Assembly (NCBI RefSeq): GCF_053078305.1
Contig: NZ_CP166879.1
Strand: one strand, 5' to 3'
DNA length: 64,000 bases
Position numbers and translations under genes: made by a program. Positions 4,204 to 61,606 of the stretch are shown in pieces. The notes under the pieces were generated by a model, which worked only from the letters and a program-made list of their open reading frames with translations, ran no database searches and was not told the DNA's origin. How positions within the stretch are numbered: position 1 is the stretch's first letter; each line of letters opens with the position of its first letter.

Positions 4204-4211
4204 CAGTGGTT

Positions 4212-7652: not shown

Positions 7653-7668
7653 TTTCTGGAAGCTAAAC

Positions 7669-12646: not shown

Positions 12647-12661
12647 TAAATAAACAATAAT

Positions 12662-12704: not shown

Positions 12705-12709
12705 GCTCT

Positions 12710-12812
12710 GCTGTGAAGCACCTGCGTTGCTCATGCAACACAAGTCAATCTGCTGGAGAGGCCGCGAACCAAACCGGCAACAAATAACCGCCTGATTTTG
12801 GCGGTTTTTTGT
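12710..12812 (+). ncRNA. candidate short plus-strand sRNA divergent from ryfA-like copy 1
   Basis: TTGACA-N18-AATATT promoter-like sequence at 12675-12704 and hairpin+T6 terminator at 12786-12812; internal hairpin GTTGC-loop-GCAAC conserved in copy 2 with loop change. Confidence 0.3.
12786..12812. terminator. bidirectional rho-independent terminator (copy 1)
   Basis: AACCGCC-TGATTT-GGCGGTT followed by TTTTTT. Confidence 0.55.
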
Positions 12813-12930
12813 TGCTTAAAGAAAGTGAATTTACATGTTTAAGTAATATCTTTTACCGGTTAGTATTTTTAATATTGAGCGGGATTTGTTTATATTTGTC
12901 TGAATTCGGACTAATAAGCCAGGTTATTTT

Positions 12931-13010
12931 ATTACTGACATATTGCGCCATTCTATGAACGTCGCTGGGGTGGTTTTTTGCATCACTTTAAACAGAATCG
13001 GATAATCTAA
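12931..13010 (+). pseudogene. duplicated 3' fragment of sseB carried on repeat unit 2
   Basis: near-identical to sseB codons for ...HIAPFYERRWGGFLRDFKQNRII* but without upstream gene. Confidence 0.55.
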
Positions 13011-13327
13011 AATATGCCGCCCCAAAGGGCGGCATTCGGGCTTACCTGCTGTTCTGAAGGTTGTTGACCACCAGTAAATTGTTGCCGGAGAGACTCCGGT
13101 TATTATTTACCTCGGTTAACAGCGCACCAGAAACAATAAGTACGATACAGAAGCACCGTATCTTCATTGTGCGGTCCATGCGAAGACCGCATCACGACAG
13201 CACCACTGGCGATATTGCCGCGATAGCAAGCACTGTGGGGTGCCTGTATTTACGGTCATGGAACATCCTTTCCTAAAGCCAGCGCCCGTTTGCGAGACGG
13301 CGAAAAGGGCCATTAAGAATAATACTC
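13011..13327 (-). ncRNA. ryfA: ryfA-like RNA copy 2
   Basis: 681-bp offset copy of 12330..12646 with conserved terminator hairpin at 13013-13034. Confidence 0.4.
13042..13179 (-). CDS. 45-codon small hydrophobic ORF, copy 2 (…VVNNLQNSR)
   Basis: same frame and length as 12361..12498; differences F(ttt>ttc) and G(ggt>ggc) synonymous, I>V and S>N conservative. Confidence 0.4.
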   Translation of the reverse strand: MDRTMKIRCFCIVLIVSGALLTEVNNNRSLSGNNLLVVNNLQNSR

Positions 13328-13391
13328 TCATGTTTGAATAATTACTCTGTTTATTATCTTGACACAGCCAGGCATAAAAGAGAGTATTTCA

Positions 13392-13495
13392 ACACTGTGG
13401 GGTGCCTGCGTTGCTCCGGCAACACAAGTCAACCTGCTGGAAAGGCCGCGAACCAGACCAGCAATAAAAAACCGCCAAATTCGGCGGTTTTTTAT
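13392..13495 (+). ncRNA. candidate short plus-strand sRNA, copy 2
   Basis: homolog of 12710..12812 ending at hairpin AAAAACCGCC-AAATTC-GGCGGTTTTT. Confidence 0.3.
13466..13495. terminator. bidirectional terminator shared by sseA and ryfA-like locus
   Basis: perfect hairpin flanked by A6 and T6, 15 bp beyond sseA stop. Confidence 0.6.
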
Positions 13496-24381: not shown

Positions 24382-25007
24382 GCCAATTTAAAGAATTTGC
24401 ATCTGTCAGCGACAAACAATTAGGGTTCTTTATTGACTCTTCGCGTTGTTCTGGCTGTAAAGCGTGTCAGGTGGCCTGTAAAGACAAAAACAACCTTGAG
24501 GTTGGGCGACGTTTTCGCCGCGTGTATGAAGTGAACGGCGGTGGCTTCATCGCCACTGGAGAGGGCGGTGTGAGTCATAATGTCTTTGCTTATACCCTTT
24601 CTGTTTCCTGTAACCATTGCGCGGATCCGATCTGTACCAAAAATTGCCCGACGATGGCGATGCATAAGCGTCCCGGAGACGGCATTGTGCGCGTGAATAC
24701 TGATAAGTGCGTCGGTTGCGGTTACTGCGCCTGGTCCTGTCCTTACGGCGCACCACAAATGAATGAGCAGACCGGGCAGATGTCGAAATGCGATTTCTGT
24801 ATTGATCTGCAAGCTAAAGGAGAACAACCCATTTGCGTGGCAACGTGCCCGTTGGGGGCGATTAAGTTCGGCCCTATTGATGAGTTGCGTGAAAAGTATG
24901 GCGATGTCAGTGATGTGAAAGGTTTACCTGATTCGTCGATTACGCAGCCAAATCTGGTGATTAAACCGCATCAGGGCGCGGAAAAGGAGGCGTCACATCA
25001 TGCATGA
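24378..25007 (+). CDS. 4Fe-4S ferredoxin-type electron transfer subunit (DmsB-like)
   Basis: 209 aa with multiple CxxCxxCxxxCP motifs; ATGA overlap with upstream gene. Confidence 0.85.
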   Translation: MSQFKEFASVSDKQLGFFIDSSRCSGCKACQVACKDKNNLEVGRRFRRVYEVNGGGFIATGEGGVSHNVFAYTLSVSCNHCADPICTKNCPTMAMHKRPGDGIVRVNTDKCVGCGYCAWSCPYGAPQMNEQTGQMSKCDFCIDLQAKGEQPICVATCPLGAIKFGPIDELREKYGDVSDVKGLPDSSITQPNLVIKPHQGAEKEASHHA

Positions 25008-25821
25008 ATTACCGTTAATGGCTTTTACGCTGTTGTTACAGGCATCGGTCGGTATGACGTTGTGGCTGGCGTTTCTTCATCGTCATATTTTAATCACCTC
25101 CAGTGCCCGCCCGGTTATGCGACCGCCATTACTGTTGGCTTTTTTGGCCGGGGCAGTAGGGTTACTGATTTCTACCTTACACCTGGGTTATCCACTTAAT
25201 GCGATGCATGCGCTAAGTCACTTTTCCAGTTCATGGCTGAGTCGGGAAATTATCTTTGGTGCGCTGTATCTGGCGCTATTGGGTTTAACCACATTACTGG
25301 TCATGTTACACAAAGGCGGCTGGCAACTCCTTCTTATGCTAGCGGCAGTGGTCGGAATTGTTGATGTTTTCTGCATGGCGCAAGTTTACATCCATACGTC
25401 GATTATCACCTGGCAGCATTACAACACGCTGATTATGTTCTTAGGTACAGTGGGAATTCTCGGTTCAGCGCTGGTAGCAGTGTTTCGTATTAGCGGAATT
25501 TTGCCGCAGATTGATGCCCTGCGTAATGGATGCGTGTTGGTGATCGCTCTCCTGGTTCTGTTGCGCTTGTTGGTTCAGCCGTTGTGGGTAGGGGATTTAA
25601 CGGCGAATGCGATGCAGATAGCTACACTGCCACATGCGCCATTAGCGATGCTGGGACAGTTAAAACCCATACTGACACTAAGCTGGGGAATTTCCGTCAT
25701 TGGGATGATGTTCTTTGCTGTCGGTGGTTGTAAAAAGAATATCCCTGCGGCGTTATTCGGTAGCGTACTGCTAGTGGGCAGTGAAGTTATGCTGCGTTTT
25801 GTCTTTTTTAGTATCGGCTAA
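25000..25821 (+). CDS. integral membrane anchor subunit (DmsC-like)
   Basis: 273 aa, highly hydrophobic multi-TM; 8-bp overlap with upstream gene. Confidence 0.75.
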   Translation: MHELPLMAFTLLLQASVGMTLWLAFLHRHILITSSARPVMRPPLLLAFLAGAVGLLISTLHLGYPLNAMHALSHFSSSWLSREIIFGALYLALLGLTTLLVMLHKGGWQLLLMLAAVVGIVDVFCMAQVYIHTSIITWQHYNTLIMFLGTVGILGSALVAVFRISGILPQIDALRNGCVLVIALLVLLRLLVQPLWVGDLTANAMQIATLPHAPLAMLGQLKPILTLSWGISVIGMMFFAVGGCKKNIPAALFGSVLLVGSEVMLRFVFFSIG

Positions 25822-26675
25822 TGTTAAGTCATAACATAACGATTGGCGCGGAATGCGCGCGCCAACGCTTTCGTTTTGCAACATGTCATGCCTGTGTCGA
25901 GGCTTGCCCGGCACAGGCGCTAACGCTGACAGAAGAGGGCATAGCGGTCGACGCGGAACAATGTATTGAGTGTGCGGTTTGCCAGTTTATTTGTCCGCAA
26001 GAGGCTATTCGTGGCGTTAATTCCCCTTTACGTTATTTTCGCAATCACACCCTGGTCGCACCTTTCACCACTATTGCGCCGACGCTGGAAGAACTTTTGC
26101 TATGGCATAAAGAGCAGGGGATCACAGCGATCGCGATTGATCTGAGTCAGGCGAAGGCATGGGAGCGCGCATTATTGCTGTTAAACGAACGCTTACGGCA
26201 ATATGGCGAGGAAGGCTGGTCTGTGGTATCTCCACATACCAGTGAGGTGAATGTTTCCCGGCGTCGTTTGTTCCATGTGCAGCGTGCGGATGTTCAGATG
26301 ACACAAATACAACCAGGATTACGTCGGTTACATTATTTATGGCCCCAGATTAGTGATGCTCGCCCGATGATGGATCCTCAAAAGTGTCAGCTTTGCGGTG
26401 CATGCTGGCGGGCCTGCGAGCAACAGGTCTTTTCGCTTAACGAAGGCCATTTACAAATCAATGATGCCTTGTGTAACGGATGCCAAAATTGTATTGCTGT
26501 TTGTTTTCATCAGGCAATGACCGTTGAATTGACGATTCTACCGGCAAAAATTGTGAATCTTCATGCTAATCGCAAAGTCTGTAAAACCTGTCAAAAATCC
26601 TTTCTTACTTTTCAGCAAAATGCGCAAAATTGTCTTTATTGCCAACGTCATCGCTATGGGATGAGAGCACCATAA
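25821..26675 (+). CDS. cysteine-rich ferredoxin-like protein, fourth gene of the operon
   Basis: 284 aa; motifs CHACVEACP, CIECAVCQFICP, CQLCGACWRAC, CNGCQNCIAVC; TAATG stop/start overlap. Confidence 0.7.
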   Translation: MLSHNITIGAECARQRFRFATCHACVEACPAQALTLTEEGIAVDAEQCIECAVCQFICPQEAIRGVNSPLRYFRNHTLVAPFTTIAPTLEELLLWHKEQGITAIAIDLSQAKAWERALLLLNERLRQYGEEGWSVVSPHTSEVNVSRRRLFHVQRADVQMTQIQPGLRRLHYLWPQISDARPMMDPQKCQLCGACWRACEQQVFSLNEGHLQINDALCNGCQNCIAVCFHQAMTVELTILPAKIVNLHANRKVCKTCQKSFLTFQQNAQNCLYCQRHRYGMRAP

Positions 26676-37608: not shown

Positions 37609-39075
37609 ATGCTACGTATCGCTAAAGAAGCTCTGACGTTTGACGACGTTCTCCTCGTTCCTGCTCATTCTACTGTTCTGCCGAATACTGCTGACCTCAG
37701 CACCCAGCTGACGAAAACTATTCGTCTGAATATCCCTATGCTTTCCGCAGCAATGGATACCGTAACGGAAGCGCGCCTGGCTATTGCTCTGGCTCAGGAA
37801 GGCGGTATCGGCTTTATCCACAAAAACATGTCCATTGAACGCCAGGCAGAAGAAGTTCGCCGTGTGAAAAAACACGAATCTGGCGTGGTGACTGATCCGC
37901 AGACTGTTCTGCCAACCACGACGCTGCGCGAAGTGAAAGAACTGACCGAGCGTAACGGTTTTGCGGGCTATCCGGTCGTTACCGAAGAAAACGAACTGGT
38001 GGGTATTATCACCGGTCGTGACGTGCGTTTTGTTACCGACCTGAACCAGCCGGTTAGCGTTTACATGACGCCGAAAGAGCGTCTGGTCACCGTGCGTGAA
38101 GGTGAAGCCCGTGAAGTGGTGCTGGCAAAAATGCACGAAAAACGCGTTGAAAAAGCGCTGGTGGTTGATGACGAATTCCACCTGATCGGCATGATCACCG
38201 TGAAAGATTTCCAGAAAGCGGAACGTAAACCGAACGCCTGTAAAGACGAGCAAGGCCGTCTGCGTGTTGGTGCTGCAGTTGGCGCAGGTGCGGGTAACGA
38301 AGAGCGTGTTGACGCGCTGGTTGCCGCTGGCGTTGACGTTCTGCTGATCGACTCCTCCCACGGTCACTCAGAAGGCGTTTTGCAGCGTATCCGTGAAACC
38401 CGTGCTAAATATCCGGATCTGCAAATCATCGGCGGCAACGTGGCAACAGCTGCAGGTGCACGCGCTCTGGCAGAAGCTGGTTGCAGCGCGGTTAAAGTCG
38501 GTATCGGCCCTGGTTCTATCTGTACGACTCGTATCGTTACTGGCGTAGGTGTTCCGCAGATCACTGCCGTTGCTGACGCAGTTGAAGCCCTGGAAGGCAC
38601 CGGTATTCCGGTTATCGCAGATGGTGGTATTCGCTTCTCCGGCGACATCGCCAAAGCTATCGCCGCTGGCGCAAGCGCGGTGATGGTAGGTTCCATGCTG
38701 GCGGGTACTGAAGAATCTCCGGGTGAAATCGAACTCTACCAGGGCCGTTCTTACAAATCTTACCGTGGTATGGGTTCCCTGGGCGCGATGTCCAAAGGTT
38801 CCTCTGACCGTTATTTCCAGAGCGATAACGCTGCCGACAAACTGGTGCCGGAAGGTATCGAAGGTCGCGTAGCTTATAAAGGTCGCCTGAAAGAGATCAT
38901 TCACCAGCAGATGGGCGGCCTGCGCTCCTGTATGGGTTTGACCGGCTGTGGTACTATCGACGAACTGCGTACTAAAGCGGAGTTTGTACGTATCAGCGGT
39001 GCGGGCATTCAGGAAAGCCACGTTCACGACGTGACCATTACTAAAGAGTCCCCGAACTACCGTCTGGGCTCCTGA
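37609..39075 (+). CDS. guaB: IMP dehydrogenase GuaB
   Basis: ORF track 37540..39075; recognised start [21 protein letters not shown]; 488 aa. Confidence 0.95.
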
Positions 39076-39143: not shown

Positions 39144-40721
39144 ATGACGGAAAACATTCATAAGCATCGCATCCTCATTCTGGACTTCGGTTCTCAGTAC
39201 ACTCAACTGGTTGCGCGCCGCGTGCGTGAGCTGGGTGTTTACTGCGAACTGTGGGCGTGGGATGTGACAGAAGCACAAATTCGTGACTTCAATCCAAGCG
39301 GCATTATTCTTTCCGGCGGCCCGGAAAGTACTACTGAAGAAAACAGTCCGCGTGCGCCGCAGTATGTCTTTGAAGCAGGCGTACCGGTATTCGGCGTTTG
39401 CTATGGCATGCAGACCATGGCAATGCAGTTGGGCGGTCACGTTGAAGCCTCTAACGAACGTGAATTTGGCTACGCGCAGGTTGAAGTCGTAAACGACAGC
39501 GCACTGGTTCGCGGTATCGAAGATGCGCTGACCGCAGACGGTAAACCGCTGCTCGATGTCTGGATGAGCCACGGCGATAAAGTTACCGCTATCCCGTCCG
39601 ACTTCGTCACCGTAGCCAGCACCGAAAGCTGCCCGTTTGCCATTATGGCTAACGAAGAAAAACGCTTCTATGGCGTACAGTTCCACCCGGAAGTGACTCA
39701 CACCCGCCAGGGTATGCGCATGCTGGAGCGTTTTGTGCGTGATATCTGCCAGTGTGAAGCCCTGTGGACGCCAGCGAAAATTATCGACGATGCTGTAGCT
39801 CGCATCCGCGAGCAGGTAGGCGACGATAAAGTCATCCTCGGCCTCTCTGGTGGTGTGGATTCCTCCGTAACCGCAATGCTGCTGCACCGCGCTATCGGTA
39901 AAAACCTGACTTGCGTATTCGTCGACAACGGCCTGCTGCGTCTCAACGAAGCAGAGCAGGTTCTGGATATGTTTGGCGATCACTTTGGTCTTAACATTGT
40001 TCACGTACCGGCAGAAGATCGCTTCCTGTCAGCGCTGGCTGGCGAAAACGATCCGGAAGCAAAACGTAAAATCATCGGTCGCGTTTTCGTTGAAGTATTC
40101 GATGAAGAAGCGCTGAAACTGGAAGACGTGAAGTGGCTGGCACAGGGCACCATCTACCCTGACGTTATCGAATCTGCGGCGTCTGCAACCGGTAAAGCAC
40201 ACGTCATCAAATCTCACCACAACGTGGGCGGCCTGCCGAAAGAGATGAAGATGGGCCTGGTTGAACCGCTGAAAGAGCTGTTCAAAGACGAAGTGCGTAA
40301 GATTGGTCTGGAGCTGGGTCTACCGTACGACATGCTGTACCGTCACCCGTTCCCGGGACCAGGCCTTGGCGTTCGTGTTCTGGGTGAAGTGAAGAAAGAG
40401 TACTGTGACCTGCTGCGCCGTGCTGACGCCATCTTCATTGAAGAACTGCGTAAAGCGGATCTGTACGACAAAGTCAGCCAGGCGTTCACCGTCTTCCTGC
40501 CAGTACGTTCCGTTGGCGTAATGGGCGATGGTCGTAAGTATGACTGGGTTGTCTCTCTGCGTGCTGTCGAAACCATCGACTTTATGACCGCACACTGGGC
40601 GCATCTGCCGTACGATTTCCTCGGTCGCGTTTCCAACCGCATTATCAATGAAGTGAACGGTATTTCCCGCGTGGTGTATGACATCAGCGGCAAGCCGCCA
40701 GCTACCATTGAGTGGGAGTGA
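39144..40721 (+). CDS. guaA: GMP synthase (glutamine-hydrolysing) GuaA
   Basis: 525-aa ORF, GATase and ATP-PPase (SGGVDSSV) motifs. Confidence 0.95.
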
Positions 40722-40760
40722 GGCTATTATTTAAACTATTGTTTTATTTGATTTAGTGAG

Positions 40761-40800
40761 TGCCATTGATGATATTGACTGCATTATCAATGGCATTTTT
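40761..40800 (+). terminator. guaA terminator
   Basis: imperfect stem TGCCATTGATGAT / ATTATCAATGGCA followed by ATTTTT. Confidence 0.5.
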
Positions 40801-41105
40801 CATGGTATAAGGCCGACGCTGAATCGAAGATATAGCAAATACCATGTGACTGTATCAGCAAATGCCATGGTATCGACAACCGGGGGCATTGCAGCGCTGT
40901 GCTGATGCCATCGATGCCCGCTTTTAGTCAGAACACTCTCTCGACCCAAGCCTCCAGATCCTTAAATATGCGCCAGAGGAGCACCTCGTGATCGAAATTA
41001 TGAACAAGACAGCCGCCGCTCGGAATCGAAGTCTCCATATGGGTGAATAAGGTTTGCGGAAAACACGCTGAGAAAATAGAAAAGCGTCAATGAAGGGACA
41101 TAGCA

Positions 41106-42386
41106 ATGGCGATTAACGGAGTGGACGGTGTTAGCGCAGTCACCGTGGATGAACTACTCAAGCAAGGCCTTCGGATACCGAACTATCAACGCCCATACAG
41201 TTGGGAAGTATCGACCGCTCTACAACTGGTGGATGATCTCAGCGAAGCTCTTCGAGATACCGAAAGAAAAGATATTCCCTATGTTTTGGGTGCAATCATT
41301 CTTCACGATGATGGTGAGTATCTCAATGTAGTCGACGGACAGCAACGTCTGCTGACTTTGCGAATGATTCTTGCGGCCTTAGATCCGATAAATCACCAAA
41401 TTTCGGTGTCTGGTAACAGAGAAACCTCTGTCTCCCTGGTTTGGATAGAGCTTCAAAGGCGCCTGTCGCAGTTGGAAGATAAAAAAGAATTTTTGGATTT
41501 TATCTGTCACAAATGTCAGTTGGTGCGTATTGTGACGGACGATATTGATGAGGCATTCCGTGTCTTTGATTCCCAGAACTATCGCGGCAAACCGCTTGCC
41601 CCTCATGACTTGCTCAAAGCACACCACCTGCGCGAAATGCACGATGAGTCCGCTGCTATGAAAGTGGCTGTCGTTGAGGCTTGGGAAGCCGTAAATGATG
41701 AGGATCTGGACAGGCTTTTTTCTACTTTTTTATACCGGATATCCAAGTGGTCACGAGGAGAAAGCTCGCTCGAATTTGCTATTCGGGACATCGGTATGTT
41801 CAAGGGAATTTCATCACGATCCCACAGATCATTTTCGCCAAATCTGCGATATCACCTTGCAGCACAAGCCGCTATGCCACTTCTAAGTGCATGGGCGGTG
41901 TCCTCGACACATGATGCTCGAAATGCCGGGCGCAGCCGCTTTCAGCTTGATGCCCCGATAATCGCTGGGCGCTCATTTTTCGAGATGGTGGCATTCATGC
42001 TTGACGAATTGAAGATACTGGAAAAAGAGGTTATCGACAAAGGTTTCAAAAACTTTGGCCCATCTCAAAGTCGCTACCGCTACGTGTACGAATTGTTCAT
42101 TGCCGCTCTGCTTTGCTATACAAACAAGTTTGGCGATGAAGATGTGGATGAAGTGCGAAATAGGTTATTCGCATGGGCATATGCCTTGCGGGTCGAGTTA
42201 CTTCGTGTGCAATTTGTATCTGCTGACAACCGAGCTCGAGGTAAAAACGATGCAAATAAATCGCCTTTTGTTTTGCTACGCAACGCGATGACTGGAAGTG
42301 TTGTCCGCAAACTTCCAATAGCAAGTCAGCCATACAACGATAACCACGAAAAGGAACTCATTGCTTTTATCAAGGGGCTGCAATGA
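41106..42386 (+). CDS. DUF262-like (ParB/Srx-fold, GmrS-like) protein without nuclease domain; first gene of accessory two-gene cassette
   Basis: 426 aa; N-terminal IPNYQRPYSW and DGQQRL motifs at ~aa 25-80, later FDSQNYRGKPL motif; SD AAGGGA upstream; stop overlaps next start. Confidence 0.8.
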   Translation: MAINGVDGVSAVTVDELLKQGLRIPNYQRPYSWEVSTALQLVDDLSEALRDTERKDIPYVLGAIILHDDGEYLNVVDGQQRLLTLRMILAALDPINHQISVSGNRETSVSLVWIELQRRLSQLEDKKEFLDFICHKCQLVRIVTDDIDEAFRVFDSQNYRGKPLAPHDLLKAHHLREMHDESAAMKVAVVEAWEAVNDEDLDRLFSTFLYRISKWSRGESSLEFAIRDIGMFKGISSRSHRSFSPNLRYHLAAQAAMPLLSAWAVSSTHDARNAGRSRFQLDAPIIAGRSFFEMVAFMLDELKILEKEVIDKGFKNFGPSQSRYRYVYELFIAALLCYTNKFGDEDVDEVRNRLFAWAYALRVELLRVQFVSADNRARGKNDANKSPFVLLRNAMTGSVVRKLPIASQPYNDNHEKELIAFIKGLQ

Positions 42387-44335
42387 GCAAGAAGGAGTTG
42401 AAACCCGAACTGCTAACAGTAGGCAAGCTATTCACGGACAATTATCTGATTCCTATTTATCAACGGAACTATGCTTGGCGGGCCGAACAGATTGAGCAAC
42501 TTATCAGCGATATTCAAGACTCGGTTGTTGGGGGCCAGGACGACTATTTTCTTGGAAACCTTGTTGTAATCAAGCGGGGTAGAGAGGACGAGTTCGAGGT
42601 CATAGATGGACAACAACGACTTACAACCCTCTATCTGCTTCTGACCTTCCTGGAGCAAGACGGTGAGGGTGGGAAGCCGTCGATTGGCCATGCAGGCCAC
42701 TTGCAATATGAGTCGCGTGCACGGGCAACGGAAGCCCTGCGGCGAGTAGCACAGGAGGCGGCTAAGGGGCACGTCCGACCGCAGGGCTCCACGAGTAATG
42801 CAGATGCTGGCATCCATGAAGGCTACAGCATCATCAATCAGTTCTTCAAACAAAATGAAACCCTTAATTGCTCACGCGAAAAATTCTCCGATTTCTTGCT
42901 AACGAAGGTTACTGTCGTCCGTGCCTCGCTGCCACCCAATACAGATCTCAATCGCTACTTCGAGATCATGAACACTCGTGGGCAGCAACTCAAGCAGGTT
43001 GATATTGTTAAGGCTCGCCTGATGAGCAAGCTGCCCAATCAATATGAACGCGAATGCTTCGCCTGGGTTTGGGATGCCTGTGCTGAGATGGATTCTTATG
43101 TCCAGATGTCTCTGACCCGTGGTGACACCAGTTTGCGAAACAAAGTATTTGGCGATGAATGGTCCTGGCTGGAGGTGACCAGCTTCGCGTCGTTAATGGA
43201 AAGTCGTCCGCAATCCGGCATCAATTCTTCAAGGCAATCCTCCGAAGGGGTATCGTTGTCCTTGGATGAGGCGTTGTCAAAATACGCTAAAGAGATCGAG
43301 TCAAATTCCACTGAAGACGAGGGCAACGAGCGGTTTCGTTCGACTATTGAGTTTCCGGCCTTTCTGCTACACGTTCTAAGAATTATGAAAGGCGATGAGG
43401 TCGAAGACGAAGGCCAGCTTGACGACAAACGCCTCATCAAGTCATTTGACGACGCTGTAAATAATGTACCCGATGCTAAAGCCGATTGGGTGCGTAACTT
43501 TACATTCATGCTCCTCAAGTGCCGCAACCTCTTCGATGGCTTCATTTTGAAGCGTCAATTCACGGCGAACATCGGTGACGATGGCGATTGGTCTCTCCAG
43601 CGATTGAAGAAAGGCGGCGCGGACAAGAAGCCAACCCCGACGTATATCCATGTTTTCTCGGCCAGCAATGGAAACTTAGAGGAGGACGGCGGTGCTGACC
43701 CACATACCCGAGATGTATTGCTGCTTCAGTCCATGCTTCGGATAACCTACACTTCTCCGCGAACGATGCACTGGATTACCAAAGTTCTTCGCTGGCTATC
43801 CGTCAAAGCCCCTCAAGACGCGAAACATGCGGATCTTGCCGATTTGTTGAAGGGGTATGCCCGCAGCAAGGTCAAAGAGACATTCCCCTTTGAGGAAGAT
43901 CAGCAACCACAAGGGTTTGGTATCAGCCGCATCGTCTTTTCGTATCTCGACTATCTTCTGTTGAGCGATTCCTCAAAACGAGATTTCAAATTTCAGTTCA
44001 GAACTTCCATTGAGCACTTTTATCCACAGCATCCGGACAAAGAACAGTCGGGCGCGGTTGTTTCAGGTTCTAGCCTTAACCTGCTTGGCAACCTTGCGCT
44101 CGTAAGCGTCAGCGCGAACTCAAAATTCAGCAATAGCCTTCCCAGAGCGAAGGCCGAAAACTTCAAGGATACGATTGAACTTCAAAGTCCCAAGCTCAAG
44201 AGAATGGCGGAAATCACTCGAAATACAAGCTGGGACGATCAGCAGATAACAGCTCATCATGAAGAGATGGTGACATTGCTTCGTGATGATGTAAGTCTGG
44301 TGGAGGCAAGCGGAAGATCCTACCCGGGGCGTTGA
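42383..44335 (+). CDS. GmrSD/SspE-like protein: N-terminal DUF262-like domain fused to C-terminal DUF1524-like His-Me finger nuclease domain (putative modification-dependent or defence endonuclease)
   Basis: 650 aa; IPIYQRNYAW and DGQQRLTTL motifs; FEIMNTRGQQL; C-terminal SIEHFYPQHP ... GNLALVSVSANSKFSN. Confidence 0.8.
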   Translation: MSKKELKPELLTVGKLFTDNYLIPIYQRNYAWRAEQIEQLISDIQDSVVGGQDDYFLGNLVVIKRGREDEFEVIDGQQRLTTLYLLLTFLEQDGEGGKPSIGHAGHLQYESRARATEALRRVAQEAAKGHVRPQGSTSNADAGIHEGYSIINQFFKQNETLNCSREKFSDFLLTKVTVVRASLPPNTDLNRYFEIMNTRGQQLKQVDIVKARLMSKLPNQYERECFAWVWDACAEMDSYVQMSLTRGDTSLRNKVFGDEWSWLEVTSFASLMESRPQSGINSSRQSSEGVSLSLDEALSKYAKEIESNSTEDEGNERFRSTIEFPAFLLHVLRIMKGDEVEDEGQLDDKRLIKSFDDAVNNVPDAKADWVRNFTFMLLKCRNLFDGFILKRQFTANIGDDGDWSLQRLKKGGADKKPTPTYIHVFSASNGNLEEDGGADPHTRDVLLLQSMLRITYTSPRTMHWITKVLRWLSVKAPQDAKHADLADLLKGYARSKVKETFPFEEDQQPQGFGISRIVFSYLDYLLLSDSSKRDFKFQFRTSIEHFYPQHPDKEQSGAVVSGSSLNLLGNLALVSVSANSKFSNSLPRAKAENFKDTIELQSPKLKRMAEITRNTSWDDQQITAHHEEMVTLLRDDVSLVEASGRSYPGR

Positions 44336-44632
44336 CTTCTTTGAATAACCGCTTTTGGACGAATGTCCCTTGTGGAGTGCAAGTTGTCAGTTTAAAAGTG
44401 TTTTGCGTCGGGCGACACGATCAGTACAGCTCCCAGGTTTTTTTACCATGGTATTTTGTGTGGTATCGACATGCAAAGATAATGCTATTTTGTTGATTTT
44501 ATAGTGTTTTAAGGCGGCATTGATCATCGAGTGGGAATAAACCCTGTACATATTGCTGAAGTTTTCTTTTCGGATAAAACTTCAGCAGATTTTCACAGCA
44601 AACCCCTCTTATCTCTGGAGGTTTTTTTTACG

Positions 44633-44667
44633 CAAATTAAAAACCCATAACTCTCACGAATCATGGG
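44633..44667 (-). terminator. yfgI terminator
   Basis: minus-strand hairpin CCCATGATTCGTGAGAGTTATGGG followed by T-rich run. Confidence 0.4.
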
Positions 44668-44686
44668 CTTTGTGGTAGAAAGACGA

Positions 44687-45226
44687 TTAATTAAACCAAC
44701 CGTCCGATTTATTCTCTTCTGCTTTACCCACGCTTTTCATCAAATCGCGACCGCCTTCTGTCACATTTCTGTTAGCGTCAGCTTCAGATTGCACGACATC
44801 AGTTTGCGCGGCTTTGTGCTTCAGCTCCTGGTCGATAAACTCGTTCTCTCGCTTAACGCGGGCTTCTTCTTTCGCCAGCGCCAGCTTTTGTTTCTGAATC
44901 TCTAAGCTGCGCAGCTCATCTTCATAACTTTGATCGCGTTTTTTATCCGCGGTGGCTTCGGCGTCCAGTTTATCCTGACGAGCTTTCTTATCCGCTGCTG
45001 CTGCCGCCGCTCTTTTGTTAGCGGCGGCCTGGGCATTTGCGCGACGTTGCTTCTCTTGCTGGATTTCCCTGTTGCGCTCCGCGACCCATTCGTCATGCTG
45101 CCTTTGCTCTTCATTTTTACCTTGCTGTTCCGCTTCTGCGACAGCAGAGAGTTGATCCTGCAATGATGAGGCGATAGCCGGATAGCTTAAGGAGACCAAG
45201 ATGGCGCAAAGAAAAACTTTCTTCAT
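44687..45226 (-). CDS. yfgI: secreted coiled-coil protein YfgI
   Basis: 179-aa ORF with signal peptide and charged coiled-coil; synteny. Confidence 0.8.
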   Translation of the reverse strand: MKKVFLCAILVSLSYPAIASSLQDQLSAVAEAEQQGKNEEQRQHDEWVAERNREIQQEKQRRANAQAAANKRAAAAAADKKARQDKLDAEATADKKRDQSYEDELRSLEIQKQKLALAKEEARVKRENEFIDQELKHKAAQTDVVQSEADANRNVTEGGRDLMKSVGKAEENKSDGWFN

Positions 45227-45241: not shown

Positions 45242-45760
45242 TTAGCTCTTTTCAGGACATTTGGTATTTGGCTGAATACGCGTTTCGTTATACGTCGTGG
45301 TAATAACAACGGCTAAACCTGTCGTAAACTGGCACTCTTTACCCACCTGAGTAGAGGTATACACTTTGGTGCCTTCCTTATACGTTAAAGAAACACCTTC
45401 CACTAAGGTTTTATCATTCACCATAGAACCCGCTGCCGCGCCTACAGCTCCGCCGCCAACTGCACCTGCCGTCGTTCCGGAATTGCTGCCAGACCCGACG
45501 TTGTGGCCGATAACACCGCCAGCGACTGCGCCAATAAGCGCGCCGAAGGCTTGTGCGTTCCGTTTATTTTGGGAGTTGTCTACGGCAACTTTTGCGGGAA
45601 GAATGGAAATAATATTAACGGTTTTAGTTTCTTGTTTGGTATTCAGTTGATCGGTTTGATAAACATCGGCGGCATGATCGTCAGCATTTGACTGGCATCC
45701 TGCCAGAGTGAATGACGCTAACATTGCCACAGGCAGAAGACATTTTTTAAATTTCATCAC
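45242..45760 (-). CDS. yfgH: glycine-zipper outer membrane lipoprotein YfgH
   Basis: 172-aa ORF, lipobox LAGC, Gly-rich GAxxG repeats. Confidence 0.8.
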   Translation of the reverse strand: MMKFKKCLLPVAMLASFTLAGCQSNADDHAADVYQTDQLNTKQETKTVNIISILPAKVAVDNSQNKRNAQAFGALIGAVAGGVIGHNVGSGSNSGTTAGAVGGGAVGAAAGSMVNDKTLVEGVSLTYKEGTKVYTSTQVGKECQFTTGLAVVITTTYNETRIQPNTKCPEKS

Positions 45761-46059
45761 TATTCCTTGTTATACACATTACGAAAAATAAGACATTTAA
45801 GATCATCAAAAGAGGAAAGTAAATGTATTGCGTATAAAGGGATAGATTAAATTTATTAAAATTCACGTGGGGAATAATTTATGAAAACACATCATTACAA
45901 CATATATATTAATTTTGCAGCCAAACAGGATAAACATCAGTCAGGACAAAGACGTAAAATTTAAGATGAAAGAATATCTGCCGCTTTGATAATTCCAAAG
46001 AGCAAAAGCATCCGACAGCGAAGCGCCGTTATGTTCTGTGAAAGTGGAGAAGGTAACCG

Positions 46060-46251
46060 CTAACGTTGTACCGGTGATTCGACGGAGAGTGTGGATTGCT
46101 GAGCTTCTTTTTTGCTCTGATGGTGCTGCCAGGCACCGACGGACGAGTAGATAAAACGGCCAAAGAAGAAGATAAAGCTGATGAGCAGTACGATACGGGT
46201 CATGCGACTGTTAAATCGGTGTCGTTTTCGCATACTGGTTGCCTGACTCAC
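46060..46251 (-). CDS. yfgG: small membrane protein YfgG
   Basis: 63-aa ORF with single TM segment; synteny. Confidence 0.65.
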   Translation of the reverse strand: MSQATSMRKRHRFNSRMTRIVLLISFIFFFGRFIYSSVGAWQHHQSKKEAQQSTLSVESPVQR

Positions 46252-46461
46252 AAAAGGTTCCTTGAAGTATGTCCCACGCTGTGGACGGTACTTACATTAA
46301 GGCACAACAGGACAAAATGGTCAATTCTTCGTTATGTAAAAAAGCGTCAGTGGATACATATTTTAATGTTATGGAAGTTAATTTAATTATTTACAATGAT
46401 GATGTAATAATGATGAATTAACATGATAAACGTAATAATTCATTAATCAGGGTTATTTTGT

Positions 46462-46475
46462 TTGATATATATCAA
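46462..46475 (+). promoter_or_regulatory. FNR binding site upstream of pdeF
   Basis: TTGATATATATCAA is a perfect TTGAT-N4-ATCAA palindrome 128 bp upstream of pdeF start. Confidence 0.5.
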
Positions 46476-46602
46476 TTGGAACTTTCATATGACACTTAGA
46501 ATCAATGCTCTCTATAGTGATGAATAATCATCATTCGAAGTCAGGTGGGATGCCTGTCTGAATACACCTCCTTCAGGATGTGGGGGATTCTGCTGAGCAT
46601 CT

Positions 46603-48846
46603 ATGAAACTGAATGCAACTTATATAAAAATACGTGATAAATGGTGGGGGCTTCCGCTGTTCCTGCCTTCTTTAATCTTGCCCATTTTCGCCCACATTAA
46701 TACTTTCGCGCATATTTCTTCCGGTGAGGTTTTTCTCTTTTATCTGCCTTTGGCACTGATGATCAGCATGATGATGTTTTTCAGCTGGGCGGCATTGCCA
46801 GGGATCGCCTTAGGGATTTTTGTCCGCAAATATGCAGAGCTTGGTTTTTACGAAACGCTCTCATTAACGGCTAATTTTATTATCATTATCATTCTCTGTT
46901 GGGGCGGTTACAGGGTCTTTACTCCCCGCCGTAACAACGTTTCACATGGTGATACCCGTTTAATTTCCCAGCGTATATTCTGGCAGATTGTGTTTCCTGC
47001 AACGCTGTTTCTGATACTTTTCCAGTTTGCTGCGTTTGTAGGATTACTGGCGAGCAGAGAAAATCTGGTCGGCGTCATGCCTTTTAACCTCGGGACCTTA
47101 ATCAATTATCAGGCCTTACTGGTGGGTAATCTGATCGGTGTCCCGCTGTGCTACTTCATCATTCGGGTAGTGCGAAATCCATTTTATTTACGTAGCTATT
47201 ATTCGCAATTAAAACAGCAGGTTGATGTCAAAGTCACCAAAAAAGAGTTCGCACTCTGGCTACTGGCATTAGGTGCTTTACTGTTGCTGTTATGCATGCC
47301 GTTAAATGAAAAAAGCACAATTTTTAGCACCAATTATACCTTGTCATTATTGCTGCCCCTGATGATGTGGGGAGCGATGCGCTATGGTTATAAGCTGATT
47401 TCGCTGCTCTGGGCGGTCGTGTTGATGATCAGCATCCACAGCTATCAAAATTACATTCCCATTTATCCTGGCTATACCACGCAGCTGACCATAACCTCCT
47501 CCAGTTATCTGGTATTCTCTTTTATTGTCAATTATATGGCTGTACTGGCAACCCGTCAGAGAACGGTAGTCAGACGCATTCAGCGGCTTGCGTATGTGGA
47601 CCCGGTGGTTCATCTGCCAAATGTTCGCGCCCTGAATCGCGCGTTGCGTGATGCCCCCTGGTCTGCGCTTTGTTATTTACGCATCCCTGGCATGGAAATG
47701 CTGGTTAAGAACTATGGCATCATGCTGCGGATTCAATACAAGCAAAAACTTTCTCACTGGCTGTCACCCTTGCTGGAACCGGGTGAAGATGTTTATCAGC
47801 TTTCGGGTAACGATCTCGCGCTGCGACTGAATACAGAATCGCACCAGGAGCGCATTGCCGCACTGGATAGCCATCTCAAGCAATTTCGTTTCTTTTGGGA
47901 TGGCATGCCGATGCAACCGCAGATTGGCGTCAGTTACTGCTATGTGCGCTCGCCAGTGAATCATATCTACCTGCTGCTGGGAGAGCTAAATACGGTCGCC
48001 GAACTTTCCATCGTGACCAACGCCCCGGAAAATATGCAGCGTCGCGGGGCAATGTATTTGCAACGCGAATTGAAAGATAAAGTCGCGATGATGAATCGAC
48101 TACAGCAGGCGCTGGAACACAACCATTTTTTCCTGATGGCCCAGCCGATTACCGGTATGCGTGGTGATGTTTACCATGAAATTCTTCTGCGCATGAAAGG
48201 TGAGAATGATGAACTGATCGGCCCCGATAGCTTCTTGCCGGTCGCGCACGAATTTGGTTTATCGTCGAGTATCGACATGTGGGTCATTGAGCATACGCTG
48301 CAATTTATGGCTGAAAACAGAGCGAAGATGCCCGCTCACCGTTTTGCTATTAATCTGTCTCCAACCTCGGTATGTCAGGCTCGTTTTCCTGTTGAAGTCA
48401 GTCAGTTGCTGGATAAATATCAGATTGAAGCGTGGCAACTTATTTTTGAAGTCACCGAAAGTAATGCTCTGACCAATGTTAAGCAGGCGCAAATCACCTT
48501 GCAGCATCTTCAGGAATTAGGCTGCCAGATTGCGATTGATGATTTCGGCACCGGCTACGCCAGCTATGCGCGGCTTAAAAATGTGAATGCCGATCTGCTT
48601 AAAATTGACGGCAGTTTTATCCGCAATATTGTGTCAAATAGTCTGGATTATCAGATAGTGGCATCGATTTGCCACCTGGCGCGAATGAAGAAAATGCGGG
48701 TAGTGGCAGAGTACGTTGAAAACGAAGAGATCCGCGAGGCGGTGCTCTCTTTGGGGATCGATTATATGCAGGGTTATCTTATTGGTAAGCCGCAGCCGTT
48801 AATTGATACGTTGAATGAAATCGAACCCATTCGCGAAAGTGCCTGA
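46603..48846 (+). CDS. pdeF: c-di-GMP phosphodiesterase PdeF (YfgF); MASE1 membrane domain, degenerate GGDEF, EAL
   Basis: 747-aa ORF with multi-TM N-terminus and EAL-domain motifs. Confidence 0.85.
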   Translation: MKLNATYIKIRDKWWGLPLFLPSLILPIFAHINTFAHISSGEVFLFYLPLALMISMMMFFSWAALPGIALGIFVRKYAELGFYETLSLTANFIIIIILCWGGYRVFTPRRNNVSHGDTRLISQRIFWQIVFPATLFLILFQFAAFVGLLASRENLVGVMPFNLGTLINYQALLVGNLIGVPLCYFIIRVVRNPFYLRSYYSQLKQQVDVKVTKKEFALWLLALGALLLLLCMPLNEKSTIFSTNYTLSLLLPLMMWGAMRYGYKLISLLWAVVLMISIHSYQNYIPIYPGYTTQLTITSSSYLVFSFIVNYMAVLATRQRTVVRRIQRLAYVDPVVHLPNVRALNRALRDAPWSALCYLRIPGMEMLVKNYGIMLRIQYKQKLSHWLSPLLEPGEDVYQLSGNDLALRLNTESHQERIAALDSHLKQFRFFWDGMPMQPQIGVSYCYVRSPVNHIYLLLGELNTVAELSIVTNAPENMQRRGAMYLQRELKDKVAMMNRLQQALEHNHFFLMAQPITGMRGDVYHEILLRMKGENDELIGPDSFLPVAHEFGLSSSIDMWVIEHTLQFMAENRAKMPAHRFAINLSPTSVCQARFPVEVSQLLDKYQIEAWQLIFEVTESNALTNVKQAQITLQHLQELGCQIAIDDFGTGYASYARLKNVNADLLKIDGSFIRNIVSNSLDYQIVASICHLARMKKMRVVAEYVENEEIREAVLSLGIDYMQGYLIGKPQPLIDTLNEIEPIRESA

Positions 48847-60757: not shown

Positions 60758-61606
60758 TCAGGATTCCTGACGTAAATAAATAGCCCGATAACAAATACTC
60801 ACCAGCACTGCACCGCCGATAATATTACCCAGCATCACCGGGAGCAGATTGGCGGTAATAAAATGGCTGACCGTCAGTGCAGGAAAATTGTCTGCGCTAC
60901 TGTGCGCCAGTTGCCAGAAGGGGCGTGGGGCAAAATGGCGAATGGCAATGGCGAACGGAATCACAAACAAATTGGCGATACAGTGCTCAAAGCCACTGGC
61001 GACAAACAGGGTGATGGGCAAAATCATGGCGACGATTTTGTCGCATAACGAACGCCCGCAATAACTCATCCACAGCGCCAGGCAAACCATCAGATTGCAC
61101 ATAATGCCGAGGCTGACAGATTCAGTAAATGTATGATGCATTTTGCCCTCGGCGCAGTGTAAAACCGCGACTCCCCACATCGCGTTTTCACTCATCACCA
61201 GCCCGGAAAACCAGATTAACAAACTGAAACAGGCAATACCTGCCAGATTACCGCAGGCCACCAGAAGTGCGTTAATCAGCCAAGTTCGCCAACTAATAAC
61301 GCCCCGACTTTTTGCCATCACCGTCATTACCGACGAGGTGAACAGGCTGGTGCCACAAACCGCCAGCAAAATAAAGCCGAGTGTAAAGCAAAGGCCGCCC
61401 ACCAGATGGGTTAATGCCTGTGAAGACGGGGCATCGGCGATAACGGAAAGGTAAAAAGTAAATCCAATCGCCATAAACACGCCAGCGGACATCGCCATTA
61501 AAAAGACCGATACATTGCTGCGGGCAATTTTATGGGCAGCAATCCGTTCAGCGATTGCCGCTTTTCTGGCGCTCAACTGCAAGTCGAAAGAGAGTTTATT
61601 TCTCAT
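60758..61606 (-). CDS. focB: formate channel FocB (FNT family)
   Basis: 282-aa multi-TM ORF; synteny with hyf operon. Confidence 0.85.
   Translation of the reverse strand: MRNKLSFDLQLSARKAAIAERIAAHKIARSNVSVFLMAMSAGVFMAIGFTFYLSVIADAPSSQALTHLVGGLCFTLGFILLAVCGTSLFTSSVMTVMAKSRGVISWRTWLINALLVACGNLAGIACFSLLIWFSGLVMSENAMWGVAVLHCAEGKMHHTFTESVSLGIMCNLMVCLALWMSYCGRSLCDKIVAMILPITLFVASGFEHCIANLFVIPFAIAIRHFAPRPFWQLAHSSADNFPALTVSHFITANLLPVMLGNIIGGAVLVSICYRAIYLRQES

What the first reader, a model, noticed from the sequence alone, without database searches (positions are those of the whole stretch)
41106..44335. Atypical codon usage in the two island genes
By eye both genes use AGA/AGG/CGA arginine and ATA isoleucine codons repeatedly (for example CGAGATACCGAAAGAAAAGAT, GGTAGAGAGGACGAG), and appear slightly lower in GC than neighbouring guaA. 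This is consistent with horizontal acquisition. I did not compute GC or codon statistics.
Basis: seen in the sequence. Interest (0 to 1): 0.35.

Follow-up and report, generated by a model that had tools for sequence, protein, structure and literature searches.

The report
Mobile phage-defence cassette beside guaA
The two odd-looking genes are a horizontally acquired 3.8-kb cassette, inserted at a known integration site at the end of guaA, that encodes a two-protein restriction system of a known kind (TgvAB / GmrS-GmrSD doublet) thought to cut sugar-modified phage DNA; the codon-usage signal is real but weak on its own.

Summary
Both genes are rich in rare Arg codons (42/76 = 55% vs 16% in the rest of the window, Fisher p 2e-13) and in ATA, and both have lower GC than guaA. 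GC3 (0.46, 0.56) and CAI (0.22, 0.25) still lie inside the range of the window's other genes, so composition alone does not prove foreign origin.

Comparison does prove it. K-12 has a 92-bp guaA-yfgI spacer here, and only 81 of 5426 complete E. coli genomes carry the segment. The same 3.82-kb DNA (95.6-97% identical) lies after guaA in Kluyvera, Providencia and Shewanella and on at least 454 Klebsiella IncF plasmids.

The segment is bounded by two copies of GAGTGGGA, the published att core of GIsul2, whose guaA attB PIME elements also use. It encodes no integrase. In strain EcPF16 it sits in tandem behind such an element.

The genes are an operon: A (426 aa, DUF262 + DUF7834) and B (650 aa, DUF262 + DUF1524 His-Me nuclease). 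This matches V. cholerae TgvAB and the 'doublet' GmrSD cluster CLS_016/017.

Likely function is modification-dependent restriction of T-even phage DNA; this is inferred, not shown. It is a new member of known kinds and of modest interest.

The parts
39144..40721 (+). guaA (GMP synthase). Its last codons GAG TGG GAG TGA contain the left att core, and the cassette supplies the final G and the TGA stop.
   Evidence: ORF and translation; annotation of matching E. coli records; junction alignment
40710..40717 (+). Left copy of the 8-bp core GAGTGGGA (attL-like junction)
   Evidence: This is one of only two GAGTGGGA in the 64-kb window. It is the start of homology with the plasmid and other-genus copies. 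It is the published core of GIsul2 att sites (PMC9376610).
40718..41105 (+). Cassette 5' non-coding region, with no ORF of 100 aa or more. It contains a 16-bp-stem hairpin at 40758-40798 followed by U5, terminator-like, 37 nt after the guaA stop. A Shine-Dalgarno-like AAGGGA lies before the ATG at 41106.
   Evidence: Fold dG -19.1 kcal/mol, z -3.8, 0 of 200 shuffles as good; inverted repeat I5; sequence; hairpin sequence retained in the other copies
41106..42386 (+). Gene A, 426 aa, TgvA-like / GmrS1-like. It has an N-terminal DUF262 (GmrSD_N, ParB-like NTPase) with YQR27, DGQQR77 and FRVFDSQN151, and a helical C-terminal DUF7834. It has no nuclease motif.
   Evidence: Pfam GmrSD_N 3e-28 and DUF7834 4e-55. 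V. cholerae TgvA has the same two Pfam domains. BLASTP to TgvA-class proteins. Motifs. AF2 model pLDDT 86, best PDB matches DndI, SspE and BrxU. RefSeq WP_001625659 (the 99.2%-identical strain's protein) is listed in cluster CLS_017.
42383..44335 (+). Gene B, 650 aa, TgvB-like / GmrSD2-like. It has DUF262 (YQR26, DGQQR75, F193..N197) plus a C-terminal DUF1524 His-Me-finger nuclease (E544-H545-F-Y-P548, N570, N579/N584). Its start overlaps the gene A stop by 4 nt (ATGA).
   Evidence: Pfam GmrSD_N 1e-33 and GmrSD_C 3e-14; motifs and overlap; BLASTP to TgvB-class proteins; near-identical proteins listed as TgvB hits in Table S5 of PMC11411939; RefSeq WP_001625657 in CLS_016
44336..44528 (+). Cassette 3' non-coding region. 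It ends ...GGCATTGATCATC directly before the right core. It is the most variable part of the cassette (18% variable columns).
   Evidence: Alignment of six cassette copies; sequence; no significant RNA structure
44529..44536 (+). Right copy of GAGTGGGA (attR-like junction). It reads ATC GAG TGG GAA TAA, a displaced guaA-type 3' end.
44537..45083 (.). Right flank that is not K-12-like. 44537-44683 is a divergent guaA-yfgI spacer found in E. coli only together with the cassette. 44684-45083 (3' half of yfgI) is only 92-94% identical to K-12 before identity returns to about 99%. This is probably donor DNA co-imported by homologous recombination.

Best explanation
Window 40710-44536 is a 3.82-kb integrase-less mobile cassette sitting in the attachment site at the 3' end of guaA. 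GIsul2 and PIME-type integrative mobilizable elements use this site; its published core is GAGTGGGA.

The cassette carries one operon of two translationally coupled genes forming a TgvAB-type (GmrS + GmrSD 'doublet') type IV restriction system. Proposed mechanism, inferred from homologues: proteins A and B act together. Their DUF262/ParB-like NTPase domains (DGQQR motif) sense hypermodified phage DNA, most likely glucosylated 5-hydroxymethylcytosine of T-even phages. They then license the His-Me-finger nuclease of B (H545) to cut that DNA, leaving unmodified host DNA untouched. A has lost the nuclease and serves as an obligatory sensor or regulatory partner.

Proposed mobility, also inferred: a tyrosine integrase of the GIsul2/PIME family, supplied in trans, recombines the two att cores. 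This lets the cassette excise, insert into empty guaA sites or look-alike plasmid sites, or be left behind when a tandem element excises. The rare-codon-rich, 48% GC composition is the unameliorated signature of a cassette circulating among hosts of very different GC content. The copy in this window probably arrived with about 0.5 kb of donor flank by homologous recombination.
For: Shown:
- Precise insertion. The K-12 empty site is ...ACCATT GAGTGGGA ATGATTTGACC.... Strains H2 and ETEC1738 have the same flanks plus the cassette and a second GAGTGGGA.
- The same junctions follow guaA in Kluyvera, Providencia and Shewanella, each with its own species-specific downstream DNA.
- At least 454 Klebsiella IncF plasmids carry the cassette, bounded by GAGTGGGA / GAGTGGGT.
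- Cassette copies are 95.6-99.6% identical at 47-48% GC.
- No integrase lies inside the cassette.
- In EcPF16 the order is guaA - core - integrase/alpA/repA/trb element - core - cassette - core.
- GAGTGGGA is the published att core. The GIsul2 integrase moves an integrase-less att-bounded unit in trans (PMC9376610). PIMEs use the guaA attB and carry defence cargo (bioRxiv 10.64898/2026.01.12.698999).
- Domain architecture and motifs.
- Best BLASTP matches run A to A-class and B to B-class among the Table S5 TgvAB-model pairs.
- Near-identical pairs are listed as TgvAB hits and as doublet clusters CLS_016/017.
- A-then-B adjacency holds in 13 of 13 loci with a full-length A homologue, from 97% down to 29% identity, and A and B co-diverge.
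- Synonymous codon differences outnumber non-synonymous ones, about 2:1 in most comparisons (one near 1:1), and both ORFs are intact in six hosts.

From the literature: TgvAB and ECOR17 GmrS1/GmrSD2 each need both genes and the nuclease histidine, and restrict T2/T4/T6 (PMC11411939, PMC11014532, PMC12373910).
Against: No experiment on this cassette was available to me. Identity to V. cholerae TgvA/TgvB is only 25% and 29%, and only the first 400 residues could be compared. Substrate choice varies within the GmrSD family: BrxU accepts hypomodified DNA, and SspE and DndI sense phosphorothioate. The best structural matches of A are DndI and SspE. Whether the synthesised CLS_016/017 representative was active is shown only in an image I could not read.

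For mobility, no circular form or integrase dependence has been shown. No empty site was found on plasmids. The plasmid left flank shows no homology to the EcPF16 element. This window's own right flank points to homologous recombination rather than direct integration. No sigma-70-like promoter was found upstream of gene A.
Confidence: 0.75

Rival explanations
1. The rare codons simply reflect weak expression of ordinary chromosomal genes. There is no horizontal transfer, and the composition is within the normal spread.
For: GC3 and CAI lie inside the range of the other 40 genes. Native weakly expressed genes in the window also have many rare Arg codons: yfgH 50%, the 60758-61606 gene 55%, pdeF 34%.
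Against: The segment is absent from 98.5% of complete E. coli genomes, and K-12 has a 92-bp spacer at this position. The same DNA is 96-97% identical in other genera and on Klebsiella plasmids, although E. coli-Providencia identity across the flanking guaBA-plus-cassette stretch averages only 84%.
Confidence: 0.02
2. The segment is a dead remnant of a larger guaA-integrated element (PIME or GIsul2-like) that lost its integrase and core genes. It is no longer mobile as a unit and spreads only vertically or by homologous recombination of flanking DNA.
For: There is no integrase, alpA, rep or oriT-like genes in the 3.8 kb. In EcPF16 the pair lies at the distal end of a full element. This window's copy has a divergent 0.5-kb right flank, suggesting import by homologous recombination.
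Against: Identical boundaries, core to core, occur in four genera with unrelated downstream DNA, in K-12-type E. coli sites, and on plasmids that have no guaA homology to recombine with. An internal intact core separates the cassette from the EcPF16 element. An analogous integrase-less att-bounded unit is experimentally mobile in trans (PMC9376610).
Confidence: 0.2
3. The two proteins are a modification-dependent nuclease, but for a different mark than glucosyl-5hmC. Candidates are phosphorothioate (as for SspE and DndI) or 5mC, 5hmC or other hypermodified bases (as for BrxU). The target might also be plasmids rather than T-even phages.
For: PADLOC models for SspE match the N-termini, alongside HEC-06 and Orf5 models. 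The best PDB sequence and fold matches are DndI (9jfl) and SspE. Specificity is known to vary across the family (PMC12373910). The cassette's location on conjugative plasmids is compatible with inter-plasmid conflict.
Against: Those matches cover mainly the shared DUF262 domain. Full-length, reciprocal similarity and the A+B architecture point to the TgvAB class. No dnd or ssp modification genes adjoin the cassette in any context seen. Both characterised doublets restrict T-even phages.
Confidence: 0.25

Closest known systems
TgvAB of Vibrio cholerae VPI-2 (VC1767/VC1766), a two-protein GmrSD-family type IV restriction system
   Same: Gene order is A then B. A has DUF262 + DUF7834 without a nuclease, and B has DUF262 + DUF1524 His-Me finger. 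DGQQR is present in both. Best BLASTP matches run A to A-class and B to B-class. Near-identical copies of this pair (Shimwellia, Klebsiella plasmid) are listed among the authors' TgvAB-model hits.
   Different: Identity is only 25% (A) and 29% (B). The pair is closer (32-37%) to the Pasteurella, Syntrophomonas and Bifidobacterium pairs. It is not embedded in a type I R-M operon. It sits on its own att-bounded cassette at guaA. Activity and substrate are untested.
GmrS1/GmrSD2 doublet of E. coli ECOR17 (clusters CLS_003/004; PMC12373910)
   Same: An E. coli two-gene system: a ParB_n-only protein plus a ParB_n + nuclease protein. Both are required, the nuclease histidine is required, and it restricts T2, T6 and T4 lacking ip3. 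The proteins of a 99.2%-identical E. coli copy of this cassette are catalogued in the same study as another doublet, CLS_016/017.
   Different: It is a different sequence cluster: the active site is E582/H583 there and E544/H545 here. Whether T4 Ip3 or any other internal protein inhibits this system is unknown. The paper found no new inhibitors for the additional clusters.
Single-chain GmrSD enzymes (GmrSD of CT596, Eco94GmrSD, BrxU) and the PT-sensing relatives SspE and DndI
   Same: DUF262 NTPase/sensor + DUF1524 nuclease architecture of protein B. These are the top sequence and fold matches in the PDB.
   Different: Those enzymes work as single proteins. Here a second, nuclease-less paralogue is always encoded upstream and, in the two characterised doublets, is indispensable.
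CR2-sul2 unit of GIsul2 (an att-bounded, integrase-less module at the guaA 3' end) and PIME / GIsul2 integrative mobilizable elements
   Same: Same chromosomal target (last codons of guaA) and same 8-bp core GAGTGGGA at both ends. The left junction reads GAGTGGGAGTGA, as in GIsul2 attLR. There is no integrase of its own. In EcPF16 it is arranged in tandem behind an integrase-bearing element.
   Different: The cargo is a phage-defence operon, not sul2/ISCR2. It is frequently found alone at guaA. Mobilisation in trans has not been demonstrated for it. It lacks every PIME core gene, so it is not itself a PIME.

Membership tests
TgvAB-type two-protein GmrSD system | Two adjacent co-oriented genes: A (DUF262 only) upstream of B (DUF262 + DUF1524) | tested here: met
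   Pfam domains; 4-nt ATGA overlap; adjacency conserved in 13 of 13 homologous loci
TgvAB-type two-protein GmrSD system | A shares the TgvA-specific C-terminal region (Pfam DUF7834), not just DUF262 | tested here: met
   DUF7834 E 4e-55 in A and E 3e-38 in V. cholerae TgvA
TgvAB-type two-protein GmrSD system | QR, DGQQR and FxxxN motifs in both proteins | tested here: met
   A: YQR27, DGQQR77, F151..N158. B: YQR26, DGQQR75, F193..N197
TgvAB-type two-protein GmrSD system | His-Me finger H...N...H/N in B (TgvB H571, N602) | tested here: met
   GmrSD_C match 521-631; E544-H545-FYP, N570, N579/N584. Residue-by-residue equivalence to TgvB was not checked because only its first 400 aa were available.
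TgvAB-type two-protein GmrSD system | Detectable sequence homology A to TgvA and B to TgvB, better than the cross pairs | tested here: met
   A-TgvA E 1e-26 against A-TgvB 1e-9; B-TgvB E 6e-36 against B-TgvA 3e-10; near-identical pair in the authors' hit table
TgvAB-type two-protein GmrSD system | Both proteins required; restriction of T-even phages dependent on glucosylated 5hmC | not testable with these tools
   Known only for V. cholerae TgvAB and ECOR17. The result for the CLS_016/017 representative is in an image-only figure.
GIsul2 / PIME integrative mobilizable elements | Integration at the guaA 3' end with the GAGTGGGA core repeated at both ends | tested here: met
   Cores at 40710-40717 and 44529-44536, the only two in the window; empty and occupied sites compared; published core
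GIsul2 / PIME integrative mobilizable elements | Own tyrosine integrase plus alpA, replicase and trbJ/trbL core genes | tested here: not met
   The only non-nested ORFs of 100 aa or more between the cores are the two DUF262 genes; the others listed lie antisense within gene B. It is therefore not a member. It resembles the integrase-less CR2-sul2 unit that such integrases move in trans.
GIsul2 / PIME integrative mobilizable elements | Integrase-dependent excision to a circle and re-integration | not testable with these tools
   Inferred only from identical boundaries in unrelated contexts
   GC3 z -1.6 and +0.2; CAI z -1.35 and -1.1, both within range. Only the rare-Arg and ATA fractions are extreme.

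The most novel reading that the evidence does not exclude
The guaA att site may work like a cassette dock. Small integrase-less, att-bounded defence modules such as this TgvAB-like cassette could be shuffled in trans by GIsul2/PIME integrases. They would move between chromosomes of different families, tandem arrays behind full elements, and look-alike sites on conjugative plasmids. That would be an integron-like exchange system for phage-defence operons. The published PIME census would miss it, because that census required all core genes to be present.
Probability: 0.4. Interest if true: 0.6.

Novelty: new member of a known kind. Interest (0 to 1): 0.35.

Why it matters
For the scan, this case shows that rare-codon richness by eye flagged a real foreign segment even though GC3 and CAI would have cleared it. 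Presence/absence comparison and junction analysis are the decisive tests.

Biologically, the cassette adds a candidate anti-T-even restriction system to about 1.5% of complete E. coli genomes and to hundreds of Klebsiella IncF plasmids. That is relevant to phage-therapy host range.

It also gives a clean natural example of a defence operon packaged as a minimal att-bounded unit at the guaA site. The example is directly testable with an integrase supplied in trans.

Tried and rejected
- The repeat search at default settings (minimum 12 nt) found no flanking repeats. The 8-bp core only emerged from the homology breakpoints with plasmid copies.
- NCBIfam gave no match for either protein.
- PADLOC gave only partial N-terminal matches to HEC-06, Orf5 and SspE models, so no PADLOC system name was adopted.
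- The promoter/terminator scan found no sigma-70-like promoter on the + strand upstream of gene A. It also missed the left hairpin because its loop is 9 nt.
- The 3' non-coding region has no significant RNA fold.
- No phage record matches the cassette.
- The search for an E. coli empty site carrying this window's variant right flank found none. The search for an empty plasmid site also found none.
- The plasmid and Buttiauxella left flanks show no homology to the EcPF16 element.
- E. coli TUM2820, which keeps only the first 445 bp of the cassette, is an ISKpn26-mediated deletion, not a different element sharing the end.
- I could not read which five extra GmrSD clusters were active in PMC12373910.
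- I could not read references 42 and 43 of the PIME preprint, so I do not claim that the 'previously characterized' T2/T4/T6 system tested there is this pair.
- The Foldseek TM-scores of the A model to DndI, SspE and BrxU are low (0.18-0.38). I use them only as family-level support.
Full report
**1. Setting**

The window is an E. coli chromosome segment running iscRS ... hisS - der - xseA - guaBA | island | yfgI - yfgH - yfgG - pdeF - ppx - ppk - purNM. The finding covers two overlapping + strand ORFs: 41106-42386 (426 aa) and 42383-44335 (650 aa).

**2. Check of the observation**

Both quoted strings are present and in frame. I took 42 non-overlapping ORFs of the window as genes and computed composition for each.

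| Measure | Gene 1 | Gene 2 | 40 other genes |
|---|---|---|---|
| GC | 0.471 | 0.499 | guaA 0.541 |
| GC3 | 0.461 (z -1.6) | 0.558 (z +0.2) | mean 0.548, sd 0.053 |
| CAI | 0.220 | 0.245 | mean 0.362, sd 0.105, minimum 0.205 |
| Rare Arg codons | 19/34 | 23/42 | 172/1051 (16%) |
| ATA among Ile | 7/24 | 3/29 | 43/965 |

- Pooled rare Arg is 42/76 (Fisher p 2e-13), and pooled ATA is 10/53 (p 2e-4).
- Both genes rank first of 42 for rare-Arg fraction.
- CAI is below guaB (0.638), guaA (0.575), ppk (0.344) and ppx (0.290), but overlaps weakly expressed native genes such as pdeF (0.255).
- Native yfgH and the gene at 60758-61606 also have at least 50% rare Arg codons.

So the rare-codon enrichment and the GC dip are real and statistically strong. 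Two of the lowest reference CAI values (0.205, 0.244) belong to another accessory cluster at 22000-26675.

**3. Direct evidence of foreign origin**

- Homology with K-12 ends at the guaA stop codon (40721) and resumes 3 nt before the yfgI stop (44684). K-12 has just 92 bp in between.
- Only 81 of 5426 complete E. coli genomes contain the segment. They fall into allele classes of at least 99%, 97.7%, 97.1% and 95.6% identity to the window. Every chromosomal copy in the 40-row sample that was annotated at its left end lies next to guaA, and two copies are on plasmids.
- The same DNA at 95.6% identity is on at least 454 large Klebsiella IncFIB/FII plasmids, between sopAB and umuDC.
- No phage record has it.
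- A scan of one genome per species found copies with 96-97% protein identity in Buttiauxella agrestis, Kluyvera sichuanensis, Providencia rettgeri and Shewanella indica.
- The six cassette copies are 95.6-99.6% identical at 47-48% GC. E. coli-Providencia identity across the whole guaBA-plus-cassette stretch averages only 84%.
- Horizontal spread is therefore certain and recent.

**4. Boundaries**

The segment shared with every other context begins at GAGTGGGA (40710-40717, the last codons of guaA). It ends at a second GAGTGGGA (44529-44536). These are the only two occurrences in the 64-kb window.

- In Kluyvera, Providencia and Shewanella the cassette follows guaA with the same junctions...ATTGAGTGGGA|GTGAGGCTATT... 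and ...ATCATCGAGTGGGA|ATAA.... After that comes each species' own downstream sequence.
- In E. coli H2 and ETEC1738 the flanks are exactly the K-12 empty site...ACCATT GAGTGGGA ATGATTTGACCCTGCAC.... The cassette and a duplicated core are inserted there.
- The left junction regenerates the guaA stop codon (GAG TGG GAG TGA).
- The right junction preserves a displaced guaA-type end (ATC GAG TGG GAA TAA).

**5. What that site is**

PMC9376610 states that GIsul2 inserts at the 3' end of guaA at 5'-GAGTGGGA-3', the core of 19-bp att sites. It also reports that the GIsul2 integrase excises and integrates an integrase-less unit (CR2-sul2) bounded by attLR and attR. The published attLR reads GAGTGGGAGTGAC..., like our left junction.

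A 2026 preprint (10.64898/2026.01.12.698999) describes about 1000 PIME elements. They use the same guaA attB, depend on IncP helper plasmids, and carry defence cargo.

Strain EcPF16, used in that preprint, contains the cassette. The order there is:
- guaA and a core at position 1371
- integrase, regulators, repA, traJ, trbJ, trbL, HigA, PIN, NERD and YecA genes
- a core at 16377, followed immediately by the cassette's left end
- the cassette
- a core at 20194
- K-12-type flank

That is a tandem array like attL-attLR-attR of GIsul2. The cassette itself has no integrase: the only non-nested ORFs of 100 aa or more between the cores are the two DUF262 genes.

Identical core-to-core boundaries appear in unrelated chromosomal and plasmid contexts. 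From this I infer that the cassette moves as a unit through an integrase supplied in trans. This step is inferred, not shown.

On Klebsiella plasmids the site is GAGTGGGA / GAGTGGGT. The plasmid sequence just left of it (TTGATAATA) resembles element right ends: TTGATCATC in the cassette and TTGATAATT in the EcPF16 element. No empty plasmid site was found, and the plasmid flank is unrelated to the EcPF16 element.

**6. This window's own copy**

The 148 bp after the right core (44537-44683) is not the K-12 spacer. In E. coli it occurs only together with the cassette. The next 400 bp (3' half of yfgI) is 92-94% identical to K-12 before identity returns to about 99%. The simplest reading is that this lineage received the cassette together with donor flanking DNA by homologous recombination. 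The donor would have carried the cassette already at guaA.

**7. The genes**

- **A (426 aa):** Pfam GmrSD_N (DUF262) at 19-175 and DUF7834 at 186-414.
- **B (650 aa):** GmrSD_N at 14-214 and GmrSD_C (DUF1524) at 521-631.
- **Coupling:** the genes overlap by ATGA, and each has a Shine-Dalgarno-like sequence.
- **Motifs:** both proteins have YQR, DGQQR and FxxxN. Only B has the His-Me finger (E544-H545-F-Y-P, N570, N579/N584).
- **A is a paralogue of B:** they are 23% identical over about 300 residues, E 1e-8.
- **Structure of A:** the AlphaFold model (pLDDT 86) has an alpha/beta N-domain and an all-helical C-domain. Its best PDB matches are DndI, SspE and BrxU, all GmrSD-family proteins.
- **No solved close relative exists**.

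**8. Comparison with known systems**

*V. cholerae TgvAB.* This system has the same architecture. Both genes, both DGQQR motifs and the TgvB histidine are required. It restricts T2/T4/T6, and phage escape it by losing glucosyltransferases (PMC11411939, PMC11014532).
- V. cholerae TgvA also carries DUF7834.
- BLASTP gives A-TgvA 25% (E 1e-26) and B-TgvB 29% (E 6e-36). Cross pairs are far weaker.
- Similarity is 32-37% to the Pasteurella, Syntrophomonas and Bifidobacterium pairs.
- Table S5 of PMC11411939 lists near-identical copies of this very pair as TgvAB-model hits: Shimwellia blattae EBL_c10540/50 and K. pneumoniae plasmid KPNIH31_27130/25.

*ECOR17 doublet.* PMC12373910 describes the E. 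coli ECOR17 GmrS1/GmrSD2 doublet. Both genes are needed and T4 Ip3 inhibits it. That study classifies the RefSeq proteins of a 99.2%-identical E. coli copy of this cassette (WP_001625659, WP_001625657) as doublet clusters CLS_017/CLS_016. A representative was synthesised and tested, but the outcome is only in a figure image.

*Conservation of the pair.* A-then-B adjacency holds in all 13 loci with a full-length A homologue, down to 29% identity in Actinomycetota, Bacteroidota and Firmicutes. A and B co-diverge. Among cassette copies, synonymous codon differences outnumber non-synonymous ones, about 2:1 in most comparisons (one near 1:1). Both observations fit a selected two-protein machine.

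**9. Mechanism proposed**

- **Shown:** the architecture, the motifs, the operon structure and the conservation of the pair.
- **From homologues:** both proteins are needed, NTPase motifs and the nuclease histidine are needed, and the targets are T-even phages with glucosyl-hmC DNA.
- **Inferred for this cassette:** A and B act together, and DUF262 domains sense the modification and gate the B nuclease. The exact modification is uncertain. I give about 0.6 for glucosyl-hmC, because specificity varies in the family.

A 16-bp-stem hairpin followed by U5 lies 37 nt after the guaA stop (dG -19.1, z -3.8). It replaces the displaced native terminator and probably insulates the operon from guaBA read-through. 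No consensus promoter was detected upstream of gene A.

**10. Verdict**

- The object is a known kind of defence system on a known kind of integration site. Its family is already catalogued, and it is packaged as a minimal integrase-less att-bounded cassette.
- That packaging, and its occurrence solo, in tandem and on plasmids, is the only mildly new element.
- Interest is modest.

Noticed in passing
window 22000-26675: A four-gene DMSO/selenate-family reductase cluster lies between pbpC and ndk: a molybdopterin A subunit, two 4Fe-4S proteins and a DmsC-type anchor. It is present in only 379 of 5426 complete E. coli genomes. Its genes have among the lowest GC3 and CAI values in the window (CAI 0.205-0.315). 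It is a second accessory segment.
   Followed up: partly
window 44537-45083: The guaA-yfgI spacer right of the cassette is not the K-12 version, and in E. coli it is found only with the cassette. The adjoining 3' half of yfgI is 92-94% identical to K-12 before identity returns to about 99%. This looks like a short tract of donor DNA imported with the cassette.
   Followed up: partly
window 44554-44587: A perfect 12-bp inverted repeat (TGCTGAAGTTTT ... AAAACTTCAGCA) sits in the variant spacer and folds better than shuffles (z -3.3). It is absent from the K-12 spacer. Its function is unknown.
   Followed up: no
window 45884-46083 and 45500-46750: There is a patch of 92% identity to K-12 between yfgH and yfgG, inside a low-GC stretch (0.36-0.40). 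Everything around it is 98-100% identical.
   Followed up: no
window 38222-38721 (guaB): A short patch of 95-97% identity to K-12 lies inside otherwise 99-100% identical guaB. It may be a small recombination tract.
   Followed up: no
L040 (E. coli TUM2820) 12001-13492: An ISKpn26 (IS5-family) insertion has left only the first 445 bp of the cassette and has removed the rest together with yfgI.
   Followed up: yes
L041 (E. coli EcPF16) 1371-22638: A 15-kb integrase-bearing guaA element lies in tandem with the cassette, separated from it by an internal GAGTGGGA. Its genes are int, regulators, repA, traJ pseudogene, trbJ, trbL, HigA, PIN, NERD and YecA. An IS66 lies between the right core and yfgI. 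Two further GAGTGGGA copies (10974, 15552) lie inside coding regions and are probably fortuitous.
   Followed up: partly
L006 (Buttiauxella agrestis) 155-8173: Here the cassette is not preceded by guaA within 9 kb, and its left core has lost one G (GAGTGG-AGTGA). The upstream ORFs (642, 681, 414, 520 and 293 aa) look like other defence or methyltransferase/ATPase genes. This could be a larger composite island.
   Followed up: no
window 42428-42853 and 43096-43545, minus strand: Two long antisense ORFs (141 and 149 aa) lie inside gene B, and both are retained in the Buttiauxella copy. They are most likely spurious. PMC12373910 also noted antisense small ORFs in the ECOR17 doublet and found them dispensable.
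   Followed up: no
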